NCBI GenBank assembly: GCA_000004985.1
Contig: GG738900.1
DNA: 64,000 nucleotides
Source: Naegleria gruberi
Taxonomy: Eukaryota
Direction: 5' to 3' (one strand)
Both the position numbers and the translations under genes were made by a program. Every line of letters begins with the position of its first letter. The stretch's first letter is position 1. Of the stretch, positions 2,769 to 33,195 are shown piece after piece. The notes under the pieces were generated by a model. It saw only the letters and a program-made list of their open reading frames with translations. It was not told the origin of the DNA and made no database searches.

Positions 2769-5342
2769 ATGGCAAATCAAGTATATGAGGATAACGAAGA
2801 ACATGAGGATAATACATCATACGATGATGAATATTCACCGATCGAGGATATTTCGGAGGGTGCTCTAGACTATAAAGATCCAATGAGAAGAGTTAAAATT
2901 TATCATTTGAGTGATCTTGGAGAGTGGATTGACAAGGGAACAGGACATATTCACTGTGAAACTCAGGTATGTTTGAAAAACATGAATTTCCAACAACAAC
3001 AAAACAAAAAGGATAACGAAACTAACCTTGTATTAGTCTCAGAGTCTTCCGATGAACGTTTATTATCAACACCAATCTCAACAGATGATATATATGCTTT
3101 ACAAAATGGTTAGTATTACCTTGTTTTTTTACAATAATTTTTGTTAATAATTTCTGTAGCAACTTTAATCGTTTGGAATGACCCAGTTCAAAAAATTGAA
3201 ATGGCTCTTAGTTTCCAACATTCTGATGGATGCATTATGATATGGTAAGTCTTTTAACATCTTGTTATTGTTAAACAATTATTTAAAGGAATGAAATCAG
3301 GAAAGTTCAAGGAAAACCTCCTGATGGAAAGGAGGTTGTTGCAAGAAACAATCAAGAAGAGGAAAGTGTAGATGATGAAATTGTTGGTATGGGACTAAAT
3401 GGAAGTTCTCTAAGTATTGGATCAACAGGTAGTAGTTTAGGAAAAATTGAGTTACCTGAACCTAGTATTAGTAATCTAACAGCTATACTATCTATAATTA
3501 CCGATCATAGATTCAGATTACCAAGTTATATCAAGTCTGATTACATTTTAAAATTGTTCCAGGTTTTTGATGATTGTGAGGATTTGGATAGTGTTGAAAA
3601 TTGTCGGATTTTATTCAAAATATTCTCTGGAATTATAGCAATTGATGATCTTGAAATATTGGAGATACTATTTTCTAAAAACAACATCATGAAGTTAATT
3701 GGTGTTTTGGAATATGATCCAGATTTACCAACAAAAAAAGCCAATCATAGAAACTTTTTAAATAATCGTGTAATTTTCAAAGAAGTTATTCCATTCAATA
3801 ATCATAATGTTTTGGATAAGATTCATCAAACATTTAAAATACAGTATATAAAGGAGACGATTTTGGCATCAATTATTGATGACCAAACATTTAGCACATT
3901 AAGCACAATAATATTCAAGAACAACACAATGATAATCAATTCCATCAAGGAAGATCAGGAATTCTTGAAGAAGGTATTTTCAACCCTATTAGCAGATGAT
4001 ACTCCAAAAGATAAACAAAGGGACCTTTCCAAGTTTCTTTCTGAATTCTTTGCATTGCTAAAACATCAAAATATTAACAATAAGATAGATACCTACAAGT
4101 AAGTTGACAGTTTTTAACTTGTTTTATTTAATAATATTTCAGGAGATTAACTCTAGATCATCAATTATTGGATGTTGCAGAGAAACATTTACAAAATGAA
4201 AATGTTTCAATCAGACATATTTAGTAAGTACTTTATAATATTTAATTCTAATGCATTATTATTCTAGTTCCGAAATACTTTTATCTATAGCACAGACGAT
4301 TCATCTCTCTTTCCTAGGAGAAATCAAACAAAGACATTTAAGAAATGATTTCAACTTGCTAAAGGTAATAATCAAAACTATTGTCAGCGAACCAGAGCTG
4401 GGCATTCAAGACAATTTGACAGAAGTCATAAAGTTATTATTGGATCCAGAGACCCTCCTTACCAACTCTGACGTATTCATTGACCAATTTTATAAGCATC
4501 ATGTTGAATTGCTTGCATCTCCAATTTTAAATCCACAGACTACAATTAATCATTTCACAAAACCTTCCATCAAAGTCAGTTGCATTAATCATGCATTGGA
4601 CTTACTTTCCTTTACAGTAATTCATCACAAACACAGAAGTAAGAACTTTTTAATAGCGAATGACATTATATCTAAGGCCGTTCATTTATTGGATGTTTAT
4701 AGGGAGAAGGATTTGATACTTGGCGTAATTAGATTCTTCAAGTCTATTATTTCGAGGGGTGACTTGCTACTTTGTACAAATATTTTGACCAACAACCTTT
4801 TTGATCCAATCATGGAAGTTTGGAGAAGAAATGGCTCAGTTTACAATCTCATTAATTCTGCAATTATAGATTTATTTGAAGCATTAAGAAATACCACAAC
4901 TGGTAGACTTAAGCAACATTGTGTCGAACGATTCAGACAAGATTTTGAAGCTGTTAATTATGTTGAAACATTTGCTCAACTTATTGAGGAATGTGATCAA
5001 CAAGAAAATTCTGAAAACAATAATAATGTATCTCAACAAGAAAGTGATGATGCCTACTTTAATGACAATGAAGAAATGCACAAGTCTATGATTGCACAAG
5101 ATTCACCAGAGCGAGCTTCTGTTGAAGAAGAGGATGATTTTTTCTTTACTCTTTCGAAACATAAGGGTAGCAATCAAGATGATGACGATGATGAATCTGA
5201 TATTTACTCTAATAGAGAGAAGAATGATATGGAGACCTCATCACCTCATTCTCCACACAAATTGCAAATTAGTTTGAAAACCAATACCACTTCACCAACC
5301 AAAGGAGAGGTGGAACCAAACCCTAAGAAGGTTAAATTTTAG
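2769..5342 (+). CDS. PPP4R3: serine/threonine-protein phosphatase 4 regulatory subunit 3 (SMEK/PP4R3), 5 exons
   Basis: Exons are 2769-3108, 3160-3244, 3289-4098, 4143-4223 and 4268-5342. Introns are 44-51 nt (GTTAGT/GTAAGT..AG). The N-terminus RRVKIYHLSDLGEWIDKGTGHIHCE is the RanBD/EVH1-like start of PP4R3. The conserved TLIVWNDP...MALSFQHSDGCIMIW block is restored only after splicing. An armadillo-like body and an acidic tail follow. Confidence 0.85.
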
Positions 5343-5580: not shown

Positions 5581-6621
5581 TTAAGGAATTTGGAGAATAA
5601 TTTTTCCAACAGTTCTATTGGATTCACTCATTTTTTGAGCTTGTGAGGCTTGATCCAAACTTAGAATATGAATTGGAATGTCTTTCCATAAACCACTTTC
5701 ACTCAACCACTTTAAGATAACTGCCAATTGATCACCATCCCTTTCAGCATACAAATTTTTGGCTCTTTCACTTCCAAAAACCTTTCCAGAAATTCCTTGA
5801 GGTGTGTGAACAATTGTAACAAATTGTGATTCTTCATCTTGTTTGAGCAATTCAATGGAATAGTATTCTTGATAGGATCCAACAAAATCCAACACTATAT
5901 CAAAGGTACCTTTCAAAGATTCCAATTCATGAGTGAGATATTCCTTTCCCTTAGTGTAATCTAACACTTGATCAGCTCCCAACTTTCTAACAAAGTCTGC
6001 ATTCTTTGCTGATGAAATGGTAACAATCTTTTCAGCATTGAAATAATTCTTGGCAAGTAAAATACCTGACATTCCAACACCACCACTTCCACCAATGATT
6101 AGAACTTGTTTTCCTCTCAAGGAGTCTTTTTGTCCACTCTTACTTGATGGATGTCTGAGGAAACATTGAAAAGCAGTCAAGAAAGTTACTGGACACGAGG
6201 CAGCAACTTGATGACTAATTGATTCTGGATTAAGAGCTGCTTGAGATTCAGAGCAGACAACATATTGACTGTATGTTCCTCTGATGTGTGTCATGTTACA
6301 ACCACAAACTGAATCACCAATCTTGAATTTGGTTACTTTGGAACCAGTGGCAACTACAATTCCACTAACTATTCGAAGGTAAGAATGAAAAATATTAAAC
6401 TTACAATCAACTCCAAGAATCGTTGGATATGAATTAATATAAAACCCATATTGTCTTACTTTACAATCTAATGGATTAACTCCAGCATATTGATTTCTAA
6501 CAAGAATGTCATCTTCATTCAATTGTGGTAAATCAAATTTATGGTCAATTACAATGTCATCAGCACTGACATTGGCAGATTTAATAATTGCAGCAGTTTG
6601 AAAGGTTGGAAGACTTGACAT
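5581..6621 (-). CDS. zinc-type alcohol dehydrogenase-like / quinone oxidoreductase (MDR superfamily), 2 exons
   Basis: Exons are 6405-6621 and 5581-6368. A 36-nt in-frame, stop-free intron (minus strand GTAAGT...ATAG, 6369-6404) is read through by the track ORF. Removing it gives ILGVDFSGIVVATGSKV, the typical MDR G.D.(S/A)G.V...G block. The Rossmann motif is VLIIGGSGGVGMSGILLAK. Confidence 0.8.
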   Translation of the reverse strand: MSSLPTFQTAAIIKSANVSADDIVIDHKFDLPQLNEDDILVRNQYAGVNPLDCKVRQYGFYINSYPTILGVDCKFNIFHSYLRIVSGIVVATGSKVTKFKIGDSVCGCNMTHIRGTYSQYVVCSESQAALNPESISHQVAASCPVTFLTAFQCFLRHPSSKSGQKDSLRGKQVLIIGGSGGVGMSGILLAKNYFNAEKIVTISSAKNADFVRKLGADQVLDYTKGKEYLTHELESLKGTFDIVLDFVGSYQEYYSIELLKQDEESQFVTIVHTPQGISGKVFGSERAKNLYAERDGDQLAVILKWLSESGLWKDIPIHILSLDQASQAQKMSESNRTVGKIILQIP

Positions 6622-10103: not shown

Positions 10104-10220
10104 AATAAAGTTGAATTTTGTAATGATTGCACTGTCGTGGGCAACATGATCTAATAAACAATCTTGATATACGAATCTTGTGTTCAATGTATGATTGTTT
10201 AAAAGTTATTAAGGTAAAAA

Positions 10221-10338
10221 GACTACAGCACCACAGGTTCCCAAGTTGTCTCCAACCTCAGTACTGATGTGGCTCGACGATGCTTACCTTCTCAAATCGG
10301 ACGGGATGAGATGCATTCATCGTGATATGGCCGTAGCC
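10221..10338 (-). rRNA. 5S: 5S ribosomal RNA, copy 1
   Basis: The reverse complement reads GGCTACGGCCATATCACGATGAATGCATCTCATCCCGTCCGATTTGAGAAGGTAAGCATCGTCGAGCCACATCAGTACTGAGGTTGGAGACAACTTGGGAACCTGTGGTGCTGTAGTC followed by TTTTT. It has 5S hallmark blocks (GGCCATA, CCCGTCCGAT, AGTACT, GGGAA) and a helix I pairing of GGCTACGG with CTGTAGTC. The ends are uncertain by a few nt (8 nt upstream are also shared with copy 2). Confidence 0.9.
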
Positions 10339-10428
10339 ATTCATTTATTTAAGTTCTGAGTCATAAATCTTTAAGCAACAGTTAGGATTGTAAGGAATAT
10401 ATTTTAATCAAGATTTTGGTTTGTTCTT

Positions 10429-10520
10429 CACTATGAACATGCTTGACTCACAACGTTGATCACAGCTAAGCCATTGTGAAAATAATTGAGTCAAGCATGT
10501 TCATAGTGATCAACGTTGTG
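10429..10520. repeat. circularly permuted inverted repeat (22-bp and 15-bp arm pairs in 1-2-1'-2' order)
   Basis: A = cactatgaacatgcttgactca (10429-10450) has its perfect reverse complement at 10487-10508. B = cacaacgttgatcac (10449-10463) has its perfect reverse complement at 10506-10520. Confidence 0.85.
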
Positions 10521-10741: not shown

Positions 10742-13700
10742 ATGCTGAAAAACAGCATAACAGTAGATTTGAGCGGTAAGGACGGAGAAGATGGTCATCA
10801 AGGCAAGAGGTAAGAGTACATACCTCAATTTTTTTGATGTTAATATGTTGCCGAATTAGTGGACGTAATGGTGAAGTGGGAAAGGTAATGTTTCTAATCT
10901 CCCTTAATCATCATAAAATCACTGTTGTAAAATAGTCAGGGAAAAGTGGACAAATATCTGCCTTAAATAATGGAAATGGAAGTCATGGAGAACCAGGAGG
11001 ACCGTAAGTATATATTGCTGGAGTGAAATTAGCCATGTGTTAATAGAGGTGGAGATGGAGAGAATGGTGGAAAGTAAGTTCTAGCTGTTATTGAGTACTT
11101 GACCTTATTTAATATTCCTTCTCAACAACAGTGGAAAAAAGGGGCAACACGCAACAGCTGGTGGAAATATTTAAGTAAAAATTGAGGGATCCAATCACAA
11201 GTTAATCACTTTGAGTGGAAGTATCAATGATTCTGTGTGTTTGAATGATGGTGCTGGACAAGTTTTGGTGTTTCTGGCGAATGGTGGAAATGGTGGAAAG
11301 TGAGTATCAGTGTAGCTTTGATTTGAAGTGCTTACAATTATAGAGGTGGACGTGGAGGACCAGGTGGTAAGTTGCTGAATAGCAAACACGACTGAGAATG
11401 TAATTCATTCAGGAATGGGGGGAGTCGGCGGAAAAGGAGGAACTGGAGCAAGAGGTGGTAATGGTAGCTCTGGAGGTAATGGTATGAATGGTCAAGATGG
11501 TGGCAATGGAGGAAAGTAAGTATTGAATGATTGAGACAATTTTGAAACTAATAATTATTTCAGTGGTGGCGTGTAAGGAGAAATACAAGTTTAGTTAGTT
11601 GATTGAAATTTAGTGCTGGAAAAGGAGGAAATGGTGGAGAGTAAGTTTTAATAATTGGTTGGAAATTCATATGTGCGTTTAACAAGTGGAGGGGAAGGAT
11701 CCAAGTAGGTTTTTCAATTATTACAACTATTTTAATGTGGAATAGTGGTGGAAATGGTGGAAATGGAGGAAGTATTCTTATTGAAACAAATAATGCTTCC
11801 TTGTTGAAGTTTGTCAAAGCAGAAAGTCAACCAGGTAAAGGAGGAATGGATGGAAAAGGTGGCTCTGCAGGAAGTGCAGGTAAAGGAGGAGAGAAAGGAC
11901 CTGGAGGACCTGGTGGTAGAGGTGGTGCAGGAGGAGCTGCAATGGGAAGAGGAATAATCAATACAAGATCTGGATCCAATGGAAGGAATGGATCAGATGG
12001 AAAATCTGGACAAAAAGGTCAAGAAGGAAGGAAGGGAAATCCAGGACACACTGGACAAGATGGTACACCAGGAAATTTAACCATTAGAGTCTATGATCCT
12101 CTTACTAATCAACTTGTGGAGGAAGGTCATTCAATTTATAATTTGGTGGTAACAACATTCGAATTGTGTGGCTATGAAAATGATGGAATTTTTGAACCAG
12201 ATGAAAATGTCTTTATTACCAACGTTGGTGTTAAGAATCAAGGAGGATTGACATTACCATCAGGTTCAGTTCTCTCATTTCCAAGCACTCAAACATTTAT
12301 TTCAAACGGTGAATGTTATGTTTTGGAGAAGAATTTGGCACCAGGCGAATTCTTTTCAATTCCTTTCCAATTTTATGGTCGAGTTGTTGGAAGGAAACAA
12401 AAACAATTTGGCCCTTTCAAGTCAACAATTAGCATTCAATCAAGTGCTTGTCTGTTAACTTCTCCATTTAGTGAAGGTTTTGTTAAGAAGGAATATCCAG
12501 TTCAGTATCCAATAGTATTGGAAAGTGTGAAAGTTCCTAAAAGTTTGGGAAGAAATGAAAAAGGAACAGTTACAATCACCGTAAAGAATCAATCTCTTAT
12601 CAATTATGGCTCTTCATTGGGTGATGGATACAGAATTAAGTTTTGTTTAACTCTGGATTCAACGTATATCATTCTAACAGAAACAAGCGCAACTAATATA
12701 TTTGAAGAGGAAATTCCCTTCATCCAAGCAGGAATGTCATACTCTAGAACGTTTAACATTGAAACAACTATCAATGCCCAATTCTATGAAACCATTCCAA
12801 TTCAAACAAATTTATTTTTGAGAGGACATCCTATTGAGGAATCATTGAACTCCATTCGTATTCAACCAACATACATTCCAACTAATCTCGATTCTCCAAA
12901 TCCTTTCGATGTGCTCTTCTTCTCAGATAAGCACATTAATAGGCAGGAATTTTCAAATTACATGTCCCTGCTTGGTAGAATAGGATTGAACGTGAATGTA
13001 TGGGATATTGAGAGATACGGTGGACTATCTTATAATAATAAGGGTAAGAGACATACAAAATCATGGATTGATGGTGGTTATGAAGGTAAAATGATAATAA
13101 TGCCTCTTATGGAACAAGGCTCTGAAAAACAAATGGCTGTCTCAGATATTTTCCAACATTTCAGGGGCAAAAATTGGCAAAATGATTCATCAAAACCAAA
13201 CAATGGATCTATCGTTTTTATCGGTAACCCTTCTGATTCATTCAAAAGTCAACTCTTTGGCGAATGCTCAGCCCAACAAATCCCAGAATCTGAACTAAGA
13301 GAAATGTTTCTGCTTTCTGAACCGAATGAAAGCTCAATGCTTAAGAAAGCAACAGAGTTTATTAAATCCCTCAATAAGACACATCCATCAAGGGTTTATA
13401 GAACTGAAAATGTGTTATTCAATCCTCAAAAAGATGGCTCATTATCAAAAACTTTATTAGGATCAGCTGATTATAAGGAATTACCCTTAAGCACTGCTGA
13501 TGCTTTATATTTCATTCCAACAAAGAGTGGAAACTCTTCTGGATTCATGAACGGAGGTATTACACTTCAAATTGAAAGCAAATCAAATATTGGAAAATTG
13601 CTTAACACTATTCTATATTCACTTCCTGTTGAGAAAAAATTGGAATTGTTAAGGAAACCAACCGAATGGCTTTCCAAAGTTCAAATTAAGGATGAAAATG

Positions 13701-13960
13701 GTGATTTACTTAATTATGTAACTTGTATTATCTTTGCTCTAAGCTTTAATCTGTTTTTGGAAATAATTTACAACGATGAAAATGGAAGATTTTCAACGGG
13801 TATTGAAGCAGATTTTGAAGCACATTTTGATGAATATAAGAATCATCCTCAATCCAAACAAATTGTTGAAACTCTATATTTGGTATTAAAGAAACTTGGC
13901 AGTGAATTAAAATGGAGAGGAACATCGGTACCTAGCATTAAGGAAAGGAAAAACCTATGA
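10742..13960 (+). CDS. glycine-rich / collagen-like repeat protein with a large unrecognised C-terminal region; 11 exons (contains an in-frame TAA)
   Basis: Exons are 10742-10809, 10860-10884, 10936-11003, 11047-11073, 11132-11299, 11344-11366, 11413-11515, 11564-11572, 11614-11640, 11687-11704 and 11746-13960. All ten introns are GT..AG and 41-58 nt. The chain encodes Gly-X-Y runs (GHQGKSGRNGEVGKSGKSGQ; GRNGSDGKSGQKGQEGRKGNPGHTGQDGTPG) and GGNGGxGG runs. TAA at 11172-11174 is in frame within exon 5. Confidence 0.6.
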
Positions 13961-14369
13961 AACTGTTTACAAAGATTTGAAAAGCATTCTCCTCAAGATT
14001 TCATCGGAACCTGCTGAATTTTTGAAGAAGGAGACCAAGACTCGTATTGGTTCTATTTCAACGGATCACTTCTTATGTCAGTTGGAGAATTTCACTAGAC
14101 CACTATTGGAAAGTTATCATTTGGAAATGGAGAAGGAACTTAGTGTGGATGGAGGAGATCATGGACATTCTCATTGACATCCTCATTGAAAAATATCACT
14201 GGAATGAAGTTGTATTATTACTCAGTTTGGTGAACTGTGCAATAAAAAAACAACTTTTAAATTCATAAAACTTTTATTGTCGTTTAAGTACCTTACTCAA
14301 CCAGATACAATAATAATGCAATTTCAAATGGAGCCAGTGCGACATCTCTAATTTTACTTGGAATTCAAA

Positions 14370-14666
14370 TTATTCTTCAAGATAGCCCTCCACACTTGAA
14401 TAAATATTCTCTCTCACGACAGTATCAGTAACTTCTTCAAATCCTTCAATATTATTTTCCTCATCATCATCGTCACTATATTTACTAGGATTCACTTGTC
14501 CCTCTCCAGCTTTACGAACCAATTTTTGTACTTCGTAGATAATGGCATAAATTCCATCTTCATCATTACTCTTTGGTTATTTATTCTCTTTGGTTAATCT
14601 TTTCATTACATTGCTGATTTGTGTGCTAACTTCATCATCACCTGCATCAGTATACATTCCATACAT
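14370..14666 (-). CDS. small acidic protein (85 aa), 2 exons; function unknown
   Basis: Exons are 14610-14666 (MYGMYTDAGDDEVSTQISN) and 14370-14570 (SNDEDGIYAIIYEVQKLVRKAGEGQVNPSKYSDDDDEENNIEGFEEVTDTVVRENIYSSVEGYLEE*). They are joined by a 39-nt GTAATG..AAAG intron (14571-14609) that contains the only stop. The gene is absent from the track because each exon is too short or lacks a start. Confidence 0.45.
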
Positions 14667-15060: not shown

Positions 15061-18000
15061 ATGAATCACAAAGGTTTTGCATTGCTTCTTGTGTTAACAT
15101 GTCTGTTGTTTATTACCATTCATCCAATAATGACTAGTGAACAAATTATTCGAAACCTTGCCGGTCAAGGAATATGTGATGGTCATTTATCAACAAATGC
15201 ACCAGTCAATCCCAGTGATTGTGCCTTTTTGGATGAAGAAATGTTAATTGCAGATGCCACTAATCATAGAATTCGTAAAGTTTTCACAAATGGAACAATT
15301 GTAACCATAGCTGGAAATGGATTTGCTGGTTACAATGGAGATGGTTTAGATGCAACAAGTGCTCAATTGAACAATCCAGTTGGCATTTATGTTGATACCA
15401 ATAGTAGAGAAGTTTACATTGCTGATTCTAATAATCATCGAATTCGTAAAATATTACAGAATGGAAAAATTACAACAATTGCTGGAACAGGAATTGCTGG
15501 CTACAATGGAGATGACAAAAGTGCAGACAGTGCCCAATTGAACACCCCAAGTGGAATTGTTATTGATCCAAATAATGGAGAAATTTTCATTTCAGATTCT
15601 AAAAATCACAGAATTCGTAAAATTTTACAAAATGGTAAAATTACAACAATTGCTGGAACTGGAGAAGCTGGTTACAATGGAGATGGAATTGAGGCAAAGT
15701 TTGCAAAATTGTATCTACCAAACGGAATTGATTTGTATGAGAAAGAGTTGTTTATTGCTGATCAAAATAATCATAGAATTCGTAAAGTTTCGCTTGATAC
15801 TGGACTAATTTCAACTATTGCTGGAAATGGAAATTCAGGTTACAATGGAGATAACATTCTGGCAACAAACTGTAAATTGAGTTTACCTGCAGGAGTTAGA
15901 TACGATTCGAAAAGAAGAGAAGTTTACATTGCTGATTCCAACAACCAAAGAATTCGTAAAATATTAGAAAGTGGAATAATTGTAACAATTGCTGGAACAG
16001 GAGAAGCTGGATTTGATAATATTCTCAATGCTACCCAATCAAAGGTTAATCATCCTAATAGTGTTACTTTGAACGAATTAGGGGAAGTTTTCATTTCAGA
16101 TTCACAAAATTATCGAGTACGAAAGATTACAACAGAAAGTGGAATAATTACAACAATTGTAGGAAATGGATTTGAAAAGTATTGCACAGATTTAGCTAGT
16201 AACACACCATTGTTTTATCCTCGTGGTATAATTTCGAATGAAAATGGAGAATTTTTCTATGCCGATTCTAGCAACCATTGTATTCGAAAAATTCTGACAA
16301 ATGGTACAATTCTTACAATTGCTGGAACAGGTACTAAGGGTTACAATGGAGATGGAATTGAAGCAACAAGTGCTCAATTAAATACTCCTCACGATGTTGC
16401 ATTAAACTTGGCAACTGGCGAGATTTACATTGCAGATACGGAAAATAATAGAATAAGAAAAATTTTGACAAATGGTACAATTACAACAATTGCAGGAACT
16501 GGAGATTATGGATACAATGGAGATGGAATCATGGCTGTAGATGCATGGTTGAATGAACCGAGTGGTGTTGAAATTGATTCCACTAGCGGTGAAGTTTTCT
16601 TTTCTGATACTGAAAATTTCAGAATTCGAAGAGTTTCGAATAGTGGAATAATTACAACAATTGCAGGAACTGGAAAATCAAAATTTAATGGAGATGGTAT
16701 GGCAACAGACACGAATCTTGCTACTCCAACTGAAATTCAATACGTTCCAAGTACTACTGAAATTTATTTTGCTGATTCTGGAAATAATAGAATTAGAAAA
16801 TTTACTATAAATGGAATGATGACAACTATTGCTGGAACAAGCACAAGTGGATATAATGGTGATAATATGCCTGCAACACGTGCTTGGTTGAATTTTCCAG
16901 TTGGTGTAACATACGATCCAAAAACCAATCAAGTTTATATTGCCGATTTATCTAATCACAGAATTAGAAAAATTCTGACAAATGGTACAATTACAACCAT
17001 TGCTGGAACAGGAAAAGGAGGTTATAATGGTAATAACTTGACAGCCTTATCCACTCAAGTGAATGGACCTCATGGAATGATACTACAACCGAATGGTGAT
17101 GTAATCTTTTCAGATAGCACCAATAATGTCATTAGAATTATCAGATCTGATCAAATTTATTGTAATGGAACATTGTCAAGTGATTTGAATGTTTGTAATG
17201 GTCGTGGTTGGTGCATGGAGAGTGGAAAATGCTCTTGTCAAGACGGATGGATTGGTGATTATTGTTCAGAGCCAACATGTGAAAATGATTGTTATGGACA
17301 TGGAAGATGTGTTTCGAATAATACATGTGAATGTGAATATGGTTGGGATGGAAACTCTCACTGTTCTCAATTTTCATGTGGTGGATTGAATAATTGTAAC
17401 TCGAATGGTTTATGTGTTTCGAATAATACTTGCAGTTGCCAATCAGGATGGGCTGGAACTGATTGTTCTCAATTTACTTGTTCTGGCGCTAGCAATTGTT
17501 CAGATCATGGTTCCTGCATTTCGAATAATACTTGTCATTGCAATTCTGGTTGGAAAGGAAATGCCCAATGTTCCCAATTTACTTGTGAACTCACAAATGA
17601 TTGTTCGAATCATGGCTTGTGTGTTTCGAATAATACTTGTCAATGTAGTTCAGGTTGGAATTTCATTAATTGTTCCATCAAAGAATGTCTCATTTCAATT
17701 GTTTCAGGTTCAAGAGAATTGATATGTGGAAATGATAATTCTTCTGGTCAACTGAAAACATTTAGCAGAATAACGACTCCAGTAATTGAAACAACAAGTT
17801 TCGAATTGAATGAAAATCAACATGTAAATGTTGATATTGGATCAAGAATAATGAATTTGGATCTATCTCAAGACAAGTATTTCATAACCTCTTCATGGAC
17901 CAATTCGAATAATTTATTCTTTACCAATGTTTCCAATTTACTAATTCAAAACTCAGGTTCATCACTTATTCAAGCAGAACTTTCAACAAAAATCAAGTAT

Positions 18001-18789
18001 TCTTTCACGCATCATTCAAATCTTGATATCATGTCATTTAACTATAATTGTTTAAGATTTGACATCCTGTCACATTTGTGGACAAATCAATCCATAACAA
18101 CAAGCATTTCTCCACAAACTAACTCCATTACATGCACAACTATATTCATTTCTTCAGTAGTTGTTCAAAGAACTTTAATCCCTTCACCATCAATCTCACC
18201 AAAACACTCATCAAATCCATTTCCATCAATTTCACATGAAAATTCAATTCCACTCCCAAGCGATGAGACAATTACATTGAATATCCAACCTGGAGAATCA
18301 ATTCTCTATCAAATAACTCTTCCATCCATGAAAAGACTTTCACTTTCGTGTAAAACAATTTCAGGAAGAGATTTAAATTTGTTTATTGGAGAAAATTTCA
18401 AACCGTCTTATGAAATGTACTCAAAAGTTATGAATTCTAATCAGGAAATGGATTTTGAAAATTGGAAGTCGATATACCAGGTGTTTTACATTCGAGTTCA
18501 AGGTTTGAAAGATTCAACAACTCAATTCACTATAAGAGCTTCAATTAGTCAACTGAGACAAGTGAATTCTTCGAGTGGAGCAAGAAATGATAATTACACC
18601 ATTGGATTAATCGTCTCAAGTGTTATTTCACTTCTATTATTAATCATTACCATCCTAACTGTTCTTAGTTGTGTTTTCTATTGGAGAAAGAAACGTAAAC
18701 TTATGGAAGAAACCAGAACGAAACTACTTTCAACTCCTAATTCGCTTCAGTATTCACCTCACCAACCGTATGAAATGGAGGAAGCATAA
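15061..18789 (+). CDS. type I membrane protein with ~14 NHL repeats and 5 tenascin-type EGF repeats
   Basis: The start is signal-peptide-like (MNHKGFALLLVLTCLLFITIHPIMT; ATG 15061, in frame inside track ORF 14977). Units of about 57 aa (NHRIRK(I/V)..NG.I.TIAGTG.AGYNGDG..A..A.LN.P.G) span about 15250-17150. EGF units (C..F(S/T)C....C..HG.C.SNNTC.C..GW.G) span about 17160-17690. The TM segment is IGLIVSSVISLLLLIITILTVLSCVFYW followed by RKKRK (about 18600-18700). Confidence 0.8.
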   Translation: MNHKGFALLLVLTCLLFITIHPIMTSEQIIRNLAGQGICDGHLSTNAPVNPSDCAFLDEEMLIADATNHRIRKVFTNGTIVTIAGNGFAGYNGDGLDATSAQLNNPVGIYVDTNSREVYIADSNNHRIRKILQNGKITTIAGTGIAGYNGDDKSADSAQLNTPSGIVIDPNNGEIFISDSKNHRIRKILQNGKITTIAGTGEAGYNGDGIEAKFAKLYLPNGIDLYEKELFIADQNNHRIRKVSLDTGLISTIAGNGNSGYNGDNILATNCKLSLPAGVRYDSKRREVYIADSNNQRIRKILESGIIVTIAGTGEAGFDNILNATQSKVNHPNSVTLNELGEVFISDSQNYRVRKITTESGIITTIVGNGFEKYCTDLASNTPLFYPRGIISNENGEFFYADSSNHCIRKILTNGTILTIAGTGTKGYNGDGIEATSAQLNTPHDVALNLATGEIYIADTENNRIRKILTNGTITTIAGTGDYGYNGDGIMAVDAWLNEPSGVEIDSTSGEVFFSDTENFRIRRVSNSGIITTIAGTGKSKFNGDGMATDTNLATPTEIQYVPSTTEIYFADSGNNRIRKFTINGMMTTIAGTSTSGYNGDNMPATRAWLNFPVGVTYDPKTNQVYIADLSNHRIRKILTNGTITTIAGTGKGGYNGNNLTALSTQVNGPHGMILQPNGDVIFSDSTNNVIRIIRSDQIYCNGTLSSDLNVCNGRGWCMESGKCSCQDGWIGDYCSEPTCENDCYGHGRCVSNNTCECEYGWDGNSHCSQFSCGGLNNCNSNGLCVSNNTCSCQSGWAGTDCSQFTCSGASNCSDHGSCISNNTCHCNSGWKGNAQCSQFTCELTNDCSNHGLCVSNNTCQCSSGWNFINCSIKECLISIVSGSRELICGNDNSSGQLKTFSRITTPVIETTSFELNENQHVNVDIGSRIMNLDLSQDKYFITSSWTNSNNLFFTNVSNLLIQNSGSSLIQAELSTKIKYSFTHHSNLDIMSFNYNCLRFDILSHLWTNQSITTSISPQTNSITCTTIFISSVVVQRTLIPSPSISPKHSSNPFPSISHENSIPLPSDETITLNIQPGESILYQITLPSMKRLSLSCKTISGRDLNLFIGENFKPSYEMYSKVMNSNQEMDFENWKSIYQVFYIRVQGLKDSTTQFTIRASISQLRQVNSSSGARNDNYTIGLIVSSVISLLLLIITILTVLSCVFYWRKKRKLMEETRTKLLSTPNSLQYSPHQPYEMEEA

Positions 18790-31715: not shown

Positions 31716-33195
31716 ATGATATTAATAGCATTTGCCAACAAATCTTCAGAAAAAAAAATGTCAAATACAGAGAAGCTTCCTTCATCACATCAAAGCATGA
31801 TGAGGAGATTTTCCTCCTCTTCCCTGATGATGATCGTGATGAGTTTAATGATTGTAGTAATGTTACTCCGATCGGAAGTTAATGCCTTCTCCTATAGAAA
31901 TGCTCCACAAGGAATACATATTGCTCTAACAGGAGTAGAAAGCGAAATGTCGGTTATGTTCTTTACCCAACTCAAATCAAAGAATTATCAAATTATTTAT
32001 TCAACTTCTAGTAATTTGGATATATTGGATGTTAAAGTTAAACAAGAGGTTGAACATTACAAGTATATTGTCTATCAAGTACCTGGAATGTATGAAGAAC
32101 TTACAGTTCATGAATTTATTCTTAAAGGCCTTCCACCAGCAACAAAGATTTATTACAGGATTGCAATGAAAAATGATGAAACAACAACAAGTGAAACATT
32201 CTCTTTCATTACTCAAAAATCAAGAAGTGAATTATTGAAGAGTGATGAACCTTTCCAATTTTTGGTTTATGGTGATATGGATATTTTCAATGATGGACAA
32301 AATACTATTGATTCAATTATGAGAAATCACATGAAGGATACTCAATTCATTCTCCATATTGGTGATATTCCTTATGTTTGGAATCATGAACATGAATACA
32401 AGTGGGAAAAGTGGTTTGATATGATTGAACCAATTACTTCTGCAATGCCATACATTGTTTGTAACGGTAATCATGGTAAGTTTTATTTCATGTAATGAAA
32501 ATTTACAATAATTGTAACTAGAAAACGCTTCTAACTTTACCTCTTACAAGACCAGATTCACTAATAGTACTGTTTCAGTAACAACCAAGTCAAATACTCA
32601 ATCAAACTTGTATTATTCATTTGATTATGGTTCAATTCACTTTATTACTATTAGTAGTGAACATGATTATGCTTTGCAAACAAGATGGATGGAGGAAGAT
32701 CTTGCAAAGGTCAATAGAGAAGAAACTCCATTCATTATTTTCTACTCACACAGACCAATGTATAGCAGTAATGAAAACCATGGAAGTTATGACCCAATCA
32801 GAATTGCAGTTGAACCTCTTTTGAGAAAGTATAAGGTTGACTTGGCATTATTTGGTCACGTTCATGCTTATGGTAAGTAGTGATATCATCTTGTGTAATA
32901 ATGTTTACTAATTTTATTAACAACAGAGAGAACTTGTCCAATCTCGGAACAAGGTGTTTGTGACAAGAAGAAGCACAGAAATTACTTTAAGAATGCTGAT
33001 GGTACCATTCACATCCATGTTGGCACAGCAGGTTTTGAACTTAATCAAAAATGGGATCCAAAACCTGAATGGAGTACATACAGAGAAACTAATCATGGTT
33101 ATCTCAGAATTAAAGTTTTTGGCAAACGTGCTCTTTCTGTCGAATTTTTGAGAAATGGTGTTACAACAGCTGACAGTTTTTTGATTGAGAAATAA
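31716..33195 (+). CDS. purple acid phosphatase (calcineurin-like metallophosphoesterase), 3 exons
   Basis: Exons are 31716-32475, 32522-32872 and 32927-33195, with GTAAGT..AG introns of 46 and 54 nt. Splicing restores the metal-ligand blocks YGDMD, HIGDIPY, GNHE (split by intron 1), SHRPMYSS and GHVHAYER (split by intron 2). The N-terminus has a hydrophobic signal/anchor. The start could instead be ATG 31758. Confidence 0.85.

What the first reader, a model, noticed from the sequence alone, without database searches (positions are those of the whole stretch)
10742..13960. Mosaic glycine-rich gene: ten ~45-nt introns cut a collagen-like/GGNGG region into mini-exons, eight of them in phase 2
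From ATG 10742 an ORF can be maintained only through the 11-exon chain listed in the features. It yields true Gly-X-Y runs (GHQGKSGRNGEVGKSGKSGQ, later GRNGSDGKSGQKGQEGRKGNPGHTGQDGTPG). These alternate with GGNGGxGG runs and short beta-strand-like islands (QVLVFLANGG, SILIETNNASLLKFVKAES). About 620 residues with no Gly bias follow, and I cannot assign them; two stretches (FITNVGVKNQGGLTLPSG and GTVTITVKNQSLINYG) look like CARDB/Ig-type sandwiches. Eight of the ten introns split a codon after its second base, five of them directly behind a GGxGG run (gga aa|GT or gga ga|GT). As a result, exons of 27, 168, 9, 27 and 18 nt are symmetric 2-2 cassettes, which is the signature of exon duplication or shuffling. 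The antisense PPFPPF ORFs in the track are mirror images of these exons.
Basis: partly seen in the sequence, partly recalled or inferred. Interest (0 to 1): 0.6.

Follow-up and report, generated by a model that had tools for sequence, protein, structure and literature searches.

The report
Unannotated intron-rich glycine-rich Naegleria gene
This is a real but unannotated Naegleria gruberi gene of an uncharacterised protein family (DUF7932); ten tiny ordinary introns cut its glycine-rich front end, and the copy in this assembly is broken by a stop codon and a frameshift, so it improves the annotation rather than revealing a new kind of biology.

Summary
From ATG 10742, eleven exons joined by ten GT-AG introns of 41-58 nt give a glycine-rich reading frame. 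Eight introns are in phase 2, and the exons of 27, 168, 9, 27 and 18 nt are symmetric.

The window is Naegleria gruberi NEG-M. The introns match the other short introns of the window. The spliced protein aligns along its whole length with homologues.

- An in-frame TAA in exon 5 (11172-11174).
- A 1-nt frameshift in an A5 run (13949-13953). Past it the family's C-terminus continues in the +1 frame to 14177.

The locus is a member of the DUF7932 family that matches no deposited protein. Other members occur in Willaertia, Percolomonas, bdelloid rotifers, a sponge, a giant virus and a bacterium.

An AlphaFold2 model (pLDDT 90) shows two Ig-like sandwiches, an alpha/beta domain and a helical domain. 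In a homologue the glycine-rich part is predicted to fold compactly.

Exon duplication or shuffling is not supported:
- The introns share no sequence similarity.
- Two homologues are intronless, and two others carry fewer introns at other positions.
- The phase-2 excess follows from introns sitting just before W-GG in a Gly-Gly-X codon lattice.

Verdict: a new member of a known kind, probably recently inactivated. Interest is modest.

The parts
10742..14177 (+). Whole gene locus, from the ATG to the TGA of the repaired frame. It is an N. gruberi DUF7932-family gene with no matching deposited protein.
   Evidence: (988-aa repaired product).
10742..10809 (+). Exon 1 (68 nt): MLKNSITVDLSGKDGEDGHQGK, the start of the first Gly-X-Y run.
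   Evidence: The N-terminus aligns with the starts of L001 and P0018.
10810..10859 (+). Intron 1, 50 nt, GTAAGA..TAG, phase 2.
10860..10884 (+). Exon 2 (25 nt): GRNGEVGK.
10885..10935 (+). Intron 2, 51 nt, GTAATG..TAG, phase 0.
10936..11003 (+). Exon 3 (68 nt): SGKSGQISALNNGNGSHGEPGG.
11004..11046 (+). Intron 3, 43 nt, GTAAGT..TAG, phase 2.
11047..11073 (+). Exon 4 (27 nt, symmetric 2-2): GGDGENGG.
11074..11131 (+). Intron 4, 58 nt, GTAAGT..CAG, phase 2.
11132..11299 (+). Exon 5 (168 nt, symmetric 2-2). It encodes beta islands 1 and 2 (NI*VKIEG...LITLSGS...QVLVFLANGGNGG).
   Evidence: aligned with homologues.
11172..11174 (+). In-frame TAA inside exon 5. It stands where homologues have a hydrophobic strand residue (I/L/W).
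11300..11343 (+). Intron 5, 44 nt, GTGAGT..TAG, phase 2.
11344..11366 (+). Exon 6 (23 nt): GGRGGPG.
11367..11412 (+). Intron 6, 46 nt, GTAAGT..CAG, phase 1. It may be the same intron as Willaertia intron 2, which has the same phase and lies one GGX unit away.
11413..11515 (+). Exon 7 (103 nt): MGGVGGKGGTGARGGNGSSGGNGMNGQDGGNGG.
11516..11563 (+). Intron 7, 48 nt, GTAAGT..CAG, phase 2.
11564..11572 (+). Exon 8 (9-nt micro-exon, symmetric 2-2): (N)GG(V).
   Evidence: Including it gives the commonest family length before island 3.
11573..11613 (+). Intron 8, 41 nt, GTAAGG..TAG, phase 2.
11614..11640 (+). Exon 9 (27 nt, symmetric 2-2): AGKGGNGG.
11641..11686 (+). Intron 9, 46 nt, GTAAGT..AAG, phase 2.
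11687..11704 (+). Exon 10 (18 nt, symmetric 2-2): GGEGS.
11705..11745 (+). Intron 10, 41 nt, GTAGGT..TAG, phase 2. It contains ATG 11735, the start of the mechanical 741-aa ORF.
11746..13960 (+). Exon 11 as it reads in the assembly (2215 nt), ending at TGA 13958-13960.
11771..11827 (+). Beta island 3 (SILIETNNASLLKFVKAES), conserved across the family.
   Evidence: (pLDDT 92-95).
11972..12073 (+). Second Gly-X-Y run (11 triplets). The Pfam Collagen hit is below threshold.
   Evidence: 21.5 bits against a cut-off of 27.2.
12143..12508 (+). DUF7932 (PF25560) domain, the first Ig-like beta-sandwich.
   Evidence: E 3e-16, 60.4 bits against a cut-off of 27.
12512..12862 (+). Second Ig-like beta-sandwich.
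12911..13534 (+). Alpha/beta domain carrying the family motifs DVLF.T and WDIERYG. It has no Pfam or PDB sequence match.
13568..13957 (+). C-terminal helical domain, truncated in the assembly.
13949..13953 (+). A5 run where a 1-nt indel shifts the frame. Removing one A joins the ORF to the +1 frame.
13954..14177 (+). C-terminal tail, 74 codons open in the +1 frame, ending at TGA 14175-14177. It corresponds to the family's C-terminal columns.

Best explanation
The locus is the Naegleria gruberi member of the DUF7932 protein family. No deposited protein matches it.

The glycine-rich 5' kilobase is split by ten ordinary short U2-type (GT-AG) introns. Spliced together, the exons encode the family's conserved N-terminal module: short Gly-X-Y runs and (X-G-G)n runs around three small beta 'islands'. 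One long exon follows. It encodes two Ig-like sandwiches, an alpha/beta domain and a helical domain.

The phase-2 excess and the symmetric mini-exons arise because most introns sit at the same place in a repeated codon motif (GGA AA|T GGT), not because exons were shuffled. Most of these introns appear specific to this gene's lineage.

The copy in this assembly carries a nonsense codon and a 1-nt frameshift. It is most likely a recently inactivated gene or allele.

Shown: the junction anatomy, family membership, collinearity with homologues, the two lesions, and the lack of intron similarity. Inferred: that the introns are actually spliced, that the lesions are real rather than sequencing errors, and the protein's function. 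The protein is probably intracellular, because it has no signal peptide and one homologue carries PH and SAM domains.
For: - Organism: five window ORFs are exact matches to N. gruberi NEG-M proteins on a 312-kb scaffold.
- Gene model. Five of the 13 plus-strand GTAAGT hexamers lie in this 1 kb. Other introns in the window are 36-54 nt with GTAAGT..YAG. Every intron gives a stop if retained, and intron GC is 0.30 against 0.46 for exons.
- Collinearity: the spliced N-terminus aligns block for block with 11 family members. The commonest family length is kept across the micro-exons.
- Family: Pfam DUF7932 scores 60.4 bits against a cut-off of 27. A profile search finds 663 representative proteins. 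Named members come from Adineta, Rotaria, Willaertia, Percolomonas and Oopsacas, and Terrestrivirus. One member lies on a bacterial contig.
- Structure: the AlphaFold2 model has pLDDT 90.4 and pTM 0.78.
- No gene model: no N. gruberi protein matches the 627-aa query, and the exact look-up fails.
- Lesions: TAA; frameshift.
- Introns: they are not alike. Homologues are intronless or have other positions. The sequence context explains the phase bias.
Against: - No transcript evidence could be examined, so no junction is experimentally confirmed. A 9-nt exon between introns of 48 and 41 nt is unusual.
- Family length in the (GGX)n region varies by 3-6 residues, so skipping of exons 8-10 is not excluded.
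- All family-invariant residues in the long exon are intact. This fits very recent inactivation, but equally a functional gene with two assembly errors or a null allele.
- The +1-frame tail on its own matches the family only weakly (E 0.059).
- The closest homologues are only about 25-32% identical. Orthology with the Willaertia gene is therefore uncertain, as is the polarity of intron gain versus loss.
Confidence: 0.7

Rival explanations
1. The gene is intact and functional. On this view the TAA and the frameshift are sequencing or assembly errors, or belong to one null allele. Alternatively the stop is avoided by skipping the symmetric exon 5.
For: All invariant and nearly invariant family residues are retained along 741 codons, and the long exon has no other stop or shift. 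The frameshift lies in a homopolymer (A5). The TAA is one substitution away from TTA or TAT. Skipping exon 5 gives an in-frame, stop-free 860-codon product.
Against: There are two independent disrupting lesions in one gene. From memory, the genome was Sanger-sequenced, where homopolymer errors are uncommon. No deposited N. gruberi protein covers the locus. Exon 5 encodes two beta islands that are conserved in every full-length homologue, so a product without it would lack a core part of the module.
Confidence: 0.3
2. One reading: the mini-exons arose by duplication or shuffling of symmetric 2-2 exon cassettes, each carrying its intron along.
For: Five exons are 2-2 symmetric. Four donors share the exon motif AATGGTGGAAATGGTGGAAA|GTRAGT (family D1). 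Donors 7-10 are spaced 57, 68 and 64 nt apart, like a tandem array.
Against: Intron interiors show no similarity beyond shuffled controls. The local maximum score is 16 against a null of 18.9. In-register identity is 0.31 against 0.30. The cluster of introns 7-10 gives P = 0.74. The shared exon motif is simply Gly-Gly-Asn coding sequence, and it also occurs uninterrupted at 11744-11769. The whole (GGX)n block is collinear with intronless homologues and has the same length, so the repeats predate the introns. No cassette corresponds to a mobile domain.
Confidence: 0.12
3. The real gene is short. Transcription starts near 11700, the 741-aa ORF from ATG 11735 is the product, and the upstream mini-exons are untranscribed relics.
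For: ATG 11735 opens the longest uninterrupted ORF, and this start would avoid the TAA. Several database family members lack the N-terminal part, although many of these are fragments.
Against: ATG 11735 lies inside a well-formed intron, GTAGGT..TAG. The upstream exons keep frame, triplet register and collinearity with homologues right up to a matching N-terminus. Splice signals are strongly enriched there. Relics would not preserve ten clean GT-AG introns that each restore the frame.
Confidence: 0.07
4. The introns were inserted one by one at a preferred target sequence (..RA|WGG..) by a site-specific process, either introner-like or by reverse splicing. This would be a burst of targeted intron gain.
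For: Seven of ten introns precede W-GG, although only 12% of positions in the Gly-rich CDS have that context. Two homologues are intronless and others have different positions. The interiors of these introns are richer in G (15%) than six other window introns (7%).
Against: The introns share no sequence and show no terminal repeats. Six other introns in the window do not have this context. This is a single gene with no outgroup close enough to date the gains.
Confidence: 0.15

Closest known systems
DUF7932-domain proteins (Pfam PF25560): Adineta steineri P0002-P0004, Rotaria magnacalcarata P0016, Willaertia magna KAL9656185.1 (P0087), the Percolomonas cosmopolitus transcript (P0094), Oopsacas minuta KAI6661803.1, and Terrestrivirus A0A3G4ZNF8
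   Same: The full-length architecture and order are the same: Gly-X-Y runs, (GGX)n runs around three beta islands, the DUF7932 sandwich, a second sandwich, an alpha/beta domain with the WD.E.Y motif, and a helical C-terminus.
   Different: Identity is only 25-32%. The Naegleria gene has ten introns, against none in Adineta P0002 and JGI P0018, three in Willaertia and six in L001. It is disrupted by a stop codon and a frameshift. No family member has a known function, and no paper in the library mentions DUF7932.
Collagen-like (Gly-X-Y) repeat proteins (Pfam PF01391)
   Same: It has two uninterrupted Gly-X-Y runs of about 8 and 11 triplets.
   Different: The Pfam score is below the gathering threshold (21.5 against 27.2 bits). 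The runs are short and flank (GGX)n runs. In the homologue model these segments are confidently placed within a monomer fold rather than an extended triple helix.
Glycine-rich polyproline-II or polyglycine-II helix bundles (snow-flea antifreeze protein, Obg N-terminal domain, ALK/LTK glycine-rich domain); recalled from memory and not tested
   Same: The sequence has triplet G-x-x/G-G-x periodicity. In the AlphaFold2 model of Adineta P0002 the Gly-rich segments have pLDDT above 90 but no DSSP helix or strand, which is what packed PPII helices look like.
   Different: No structural comparison of the N-terminal module alone was possible. Whole-model searches returned only Ig-like hits. Here the Gly runs are interleaved with beta islands.
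C-terminal beta-barrel domains of transglutaminases, and CARDB, macroglobulin or pilin Ig-like domains
   Different: The match is fold-level only (8-13% identity, TM about 0.17-0.2 for the whole model). There is no Pfam CARDB or transglutaminase hit and no catalytic core.

Membership tests
DUF7932 family (PF25560) | Pfam model hit above the gathering threshold | tested here: met
   E 3e-16, 60.4 bits against a cut-off of 27, ORF residues 137-258.
DUF7932 family (PF25560) | Full-length collinearity with family members beyond the Pfam domain (second sandwich, alpha/beta WD.E.Y domain, helical tail) | tested here: met
   Alignments A1-A4 have invariant columns along the whole length. The profile retrieves 663 representatives.
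DUF7932 family (PF25560) | N-terminal Gly-X-Y / (GGX)n module with three beta islands | tested here: met
   The spliced 11-exon product aligns block for block with 11 members.
DUF7932 family (PF25560) | Intact open reading frame (a functional member) | tested here: not met
   In-frame TAA at 11172-11174; 1-nt frameshift at 13949-13953.
Canonical U2-type spliceosomal introns of N. gruberi | GT..AG boundaries with a GTAAGT-like donor | tested here: met
   10 of 10 are GT-AG; 8 begin GTAAG, with one GTGAGT and one GTAGGT. GTAAGT is enriched 25-fold locally.
Canonical U2-type spliceosomal introns of N. gruberi | Length and composition like other introns of the same genome | tested here: met
   41-58 nt against 36-54 nt for six other introns in the window; AT-rich, though richer in G.
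Canonical U2-type spliceosomal introns of N. gruberi | Removal from the transcript | not testable with these tools
   No RNA-seq or EST data were accessible.
Exon shuffling or duplication cassettes | Symmetric exons | tested here: met
   Exons 4, 5, 8, 9 and 10 are 2-2.
Exon shuffling or duplication cassettes | Paralogous exon-intron units (similar introns), or cassettes matching modules found in other genes | tested here: not met
   There is no intron similarity. The repeats are present and collinear in intronless homologues.
Introner-like elements | A family of introns with shared sequence | tested here: not met
   within this gene and against six window introns only. A genome-wide test was not possible.
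Collagen triple-helix repeat (PF01391) | Pfam hit above threshold, or a long uninterrupted Gly-X-Y tract | tested here: not met
   21.5 bits against a cut-off of 27.2; the runs are about 8 and 11 triplets.
CARDB / Ig-like beta-sandwich | Ig-like sandwich fold | tested here: met
CARDB / Ig-like beta-sandwich | Sequence membership in Pfam CARDB | tested here: not met
   No CARDB hit even at E <= 1 in 19 members.

The most novel reading that the evidence does not exclude
In an intron-poor protist, one gene acquired about eight or nine new introns. Its homologues elsewhere are intronless or carry a few introns at other positions. Nearly all the new introns lie at the same point of a repeated glycine-codon motif (GGA AA|T GG). 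That would be a natural example of sequence-targeted, serial intron gain. It might be favoured because every phase-2 GT(A/G)(A/G) donor places a stop codon in frame at +2..+4, so an unspliced message is terminated at once.
Probability: 0.2. Interest if true: 0.6.

Novelty: new member of a known kind. Interest (0 to 1): 0.35.

Why it matters
- Annotation: the finding adds a missing gene or pseudogene to the N. gruberi reference. Its micro-exons of 9-27 nt show what gene finders fail to model in low-complexity, intron-dense regions.
- Family: it places Heterolobosea firmly within a widespread but completely uncharacterised family (DUF7932; 663 representative clusters). The family also occurs in rotifers, a sponge, a giant virus and a bacterium. 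Its glycine-rich module is predicted to be a folded domain rather than disordered linker.
- Intron evolution: phase bias and symmetric exons, often read as exon shuffling, can arise trivially from a triplet-periodic coding repeat. The locus is also a candidate case of clustered lineage-specific intron gain, testable with other Naegleria genomes.

Tried and rejected
- Alternative genetic code (TAA as a sense codon). Rejected because 26 ORFs of at least 200 aa in the window are open under the standard code, and exact matches to deposited N. gruberi proteins confirm it.
- A small intron that removes the TAA or the frameshift. No GT..AG pair of plausible length and phase does so (manual check). 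Only skipping exon 5 avoids the TAA.
- Exhaustive enumeration of all GT-AG chains. It either exploded combinatorially or timed out, so it was replaced by the 512 exon-skipping combinations.
- Intron paralogy or introner tests were all negative: local alignment, in-register identity, similarity to the coding repeat, and the cluster of introns 7-10.
- Word-index homologue searches gave only 4-5 hits. The full HMMER scan was needed to see the family.
- Function from sequence. Pfam at E <= 1 on 19 members and a profile against PDB sequences gave nothing beyond DUF7932.
- Bacterial gene context. The genome-contig scan found only a spurious archaeal match. The one bacterial locus shows no informative operon.
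- Scans of viral contigs and metagenome contigs for close relatives found nothing.
- No paralogue lies elsewhere in the window.
- N. gruberi intron statistics could not be retrieved from the library.
Full report
WHERE THE WINDOW COMES FROM. The window is AT-rich (about 33% GC) and dense with long ORFs. Five of ten ORF translations are exact matches to deposited Naegleria gruberi NEG-M proteins (EFC39319, EFC39387, EFC39317, EFC39322, EFC39328). All five sit on one 312,004-bp scaffold. The standard genetic code therefore applies.

CHECKING THE OBSERVATION.
- The eleven exons are 10742-10809, 10860-10884, 10936-11003, 11047-11073, 11132-11299, 11344-11366, 11413-11515, 11564-11572, 11614-11640, 11687-11704 and 11746-13960.
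- The ten introns measure 50, 51, 43, 58, 44, 46, 48, 41, 46 and 41 nt. All are GT..AG, and eight donors begin GTAAG.
- The phases are 2,0,2,2,2,1,2,2,2,2.
- The exons of 27, 168, 9, 27 and 18 nt are 2-2 symmetric, exactly as claimed.
- The quoted peptides and the antisense PPFPPF ORFs are present.

Several results show this is far beyond chance.
- Five of the 13 plus-strand GTAAGT hexamers in the 64-kb window fall in this one kilobase.
- Six other evident introns in the window are 36-54 nt with GTAAGT..YAG, so they belong to the same class.
- Intron GC is 0.30 against 0.46 for exons 1-10, and every intron would bring an in-frame stop if retained.
- The X-G-G triplet register runs unbroken for 26 triplets across six junctions, and the Gly-X-Y register runs across the first two.

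The chain is not open.
- Codon 77, in exon 5, is TAA (11172-11174). In an alignment with homologues this codon stands at a hydrophobic beta-strand position: NI*VKIEG against DIILTVSG and ALIWLNGT. The simplest origin is one substitution from TTA or TAT.
- At the 3' end the ORF stops at TGA 13958-13960. A 74-codon open frame follows at once in the +1 frame and runs to 14177. Such a frame is unlikely by chance in 33%-GC DNA; my rough estimate is about 0.003.
- Deleting one A from the A5 run at 13949-13953 joins the two frames into a 988-residue product.
- Homologues continue about 75-100 residues beyond the conserved W-x-G motif, which is where the Naegleria ORF breaks off.
- The repaired C-terminus aligns to the last columns of the family profile (hhalign probability 92%). 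The tail on its own matches only weakly (E 0.059, an RPL motif in the right place).
- No plausible GT..AG intron removes either lesion.
- Because five exons are symmetric, 80 of the 512 exon-skipping combinations are in frame and stop-free. All the listed ones omit exon 5. So 'only this chain' is too strong.

WHAT THE GENE IS. The 741-residue ORF carries one significant Pfam domain, DUF7932 (60.4 bits, cut-off 27). Its Collagen hit is below threshold.
- Word-index searches found only a JGI metagenome protein and Adineta steineri 'DUF7932 domain-containing' proteins at 26-32% identity. They found no N. gruberi protein.
- The exact ORF is also absent from the collection. No deposited protein covers this locus, so it appears to be unannotated.
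- A full HMMER profile scan of 1.84 billion representatives found 663 family members, 133 of them at E <= 1e-30.
- Named members come from Rotaria magnacalcarata; from Willaertia magna, Percolomonas cosmopolitus (a complete transcript) and the sponge Oopsacas minuta; and from a giant virus, Terrestrivirus (Foldseek E 4.7e-25 over 945 columns).
- One member lies on a bacterial contig among ScpA/ScpB and RF3 genes.
- No paper in the library mentions DUF7932.
- All full-length members share one architecture: Gly-X-Y runs; (G-G-X)n runs interleaved with three short beta 'islands'; then about 620 residues without Gly bias.

VALIDATING THE MINI-EXONS BY HOMOLOGY. The spliced Naegleria N-terminus aligns block for block with eleven family members, from a matching start (MLKNSITVDLSG against MKQIEFVIEHNG) to island 3.
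- With all micro-exons included, the 27 residues between GG(D/N)GG and island 3 have the commonest family length. They align without gaps to L001, P0018, P0019, P0023, P0004 and P0015.
- Some members are 3-6 residues shorter there, so skipping a micro-exon is disfavoured but not excluded.

STRUCTURE.
- An AlphaFold2 model of the 741-residue ORF, built on a 69-sequence alignment, is confident (pLDDT 90.4, pTM 0.78).
- It contains two beta-sandwiches (about residues 114-256 and 260-376), an alpha/beta domain (about 393-600, with the motifs DVLF.T and WDIERYG) and a helical domain.
- The alpha/beta and helical domains have no match in Pfam or in PDB sequences.
I modelled full-length Adineta P0002 instead (pLDDT 82). 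Its Gly-rich segments score 90-97 but carry no DSSP helix or strand. I read this, as an inference, as a compact polyproline-II-type fold packed against the beta islands, not a disordered linker or a collagen triple helix.
- There is no N-terminal signal peptide. One homologue carries PH and SAM domains, which suggests an intracellular protein. The function remains unknown.

WHY PHASE 2, AND IS IT EXON SHUFFLING? Tests for intron paralogy were negative.
- The best local score is 16, against a shuffled maximum of 18.9 +/- 2.3.
- In-register identity is 0.31 against 0.30.
- The tandem-looking cluster of introns 7-10 gives P = 0.74.
- The motif shared by four donors (AATGGTGGAAATGGTGGAAA|GTRAGT) is simply Gly-Gly-Asn coding sequence, and it also occurs uninterrupted at 11744-11769.

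Homologous genes tell the same story.
- Adineta P0002 and JGI P0018 are single uninterrupted ORFs.
- Willaertia magna has three introns (39, 58 and 45 nt; phases 1,1,0).
- The metagenome eukaryote L001 has six introns (33-40 nt; phases 1,1,0,1,0,0).
- In both Willaertia and L001 the introns also lie in the 5' part of the gene, mostly within the Gly-rich region, but none coincides with a Naegleria position. The one possible exception is Naegleria intron 6 and Willaertia intron 2, which share a phase and lie one GGX unit apart.

The repeats therefore predate the introns, and most Naegleria introns look lineage-specific. The caveat is that the homologues are distant (25-32% identity).

The phase excess has a simple cause. 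Seven of the ten introns lie just before W-GG. Only 12% of positions in the Gly-rich CDS have that context, and 88% of those positions are phase 2, because the base before a Gly codon is a third codon position. Why the introns favour that context is unexplained. The candidates are ancient duplication of an intron-bearing unit that has since diverged to saturation, or an insertion preference.

One side observation: all eight phase-2 donors place TAA, TGA or TAG in frame at +2..+4, so a retained intron terminates translation immediately.

VERDICT.
- The locus is a genuine, multi-intron N. gruberi member of an uncharacterised but widespread family, with no matching deposited protein.
- The intron anatomy is canonical.
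- The 'shuffling signature' is a by-product of triplet-periodic coding sequence.
- The assembly copy is disrupted twice, although every conserved residue is retained. I favour a recently inactivated gene or allele. NEG-M is, from memory, a long-cultured axenic clone. Sequencing error is the main alternative.
- From memory of the genome paper (not retrievable here), N. gruberi averages under one intron per gene. Ten introns in one kilobase is therefore unusual for this organism, which fits the sparse introns seen elsewhere in the window.
- Interest is modest: useful for annotation and as a candidate case of clustered intron gain, but not a new kind of system.

Noticed in passing
window 10220-10338 (-): A full-length 5S rRNA gene (Rfam RF00001, 98.5 bits, E 2e-21). 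It lies about 400 nt upstream of the finding's ATG, between it and the upstream minus-strand ORF.
   Followed up: partly
window 10423-10520: Two interleaved inverted repeats, unique in the window. One is 28 nt (10423-10450 / 10487-10514, 93% complementary); the other is a perfect 15 nt (10449-10463 / 10506-10520). They are arranged A-B-loop-A'-B', so the two cannot pair at the same time. They lie 85-180 nt upstream of the 5S gene and 220-320 nt upstream of the finding's ATG. No Rfam match.
   Followed up: partly
window 10811, 11005, 11075, 11301, 11517, 11574, 11642, 11706 (intron positions +2..+4): In all eight phase-2 introns, the donor's own TAA, TGA or TAG is in frame, so a retained intron stops translation at the first intronic codon.
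   Followed up: partly
window 10810-11745 (intron interiors): The interiors of the ten introns contain 15% G, against 7% in six other short introns of the window. The sample is small and the difference is unexplained.
   Followed up: no
window 15061-18789 (+): The downstream neighbour is a 1242-aa single-exon protein with a signal peptide, many NHL repeats, teneurin-type EGF repeats and a C-terminal TM segment. Its exact sequence from that ATG is not in the protein collection.
   Followed up: no
window 14424-14470 (-): A weak, sub-threshold C/D-box snoRNA-like match (Rfam sR5, 22 bits against a gathering score of 40, E 0.053), probably chance.
   Followed up: no
L001 4821-7932 (JGI metagenome 3300062135 contig Ga0606108_0167): This eukaryotic metagenome contig encodes an intact full-length family member of 965 aa once six introns of 33-40 nt are removed. 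The prokaryote-style gene caller had reported only its last 643 residues.
   Followed up: yes
BFVD A0A3G4ZNF8 (Terrestrivirus sp.): A giant-virus protein annotated as DUF7932-containing matches the Naegleria model over 945 columns (Foldseek E 4.7e-25). The family is therefore shared between protists and a giant virus. The window's neighbours are ordinary cellular genes, so there is no sign of a viral insertion here.
   Followed up: partly
window 4099-4142, 4224-4267, 3245-3288, 32476-32521, 32873-32926 (+); about 6369-6404 (-): Other short GTAAGT..YAG introns (36-54 nt) in neighbouring genes. I used them here only as a local benchmark for N. gruberi introns.
   Followed up: partly
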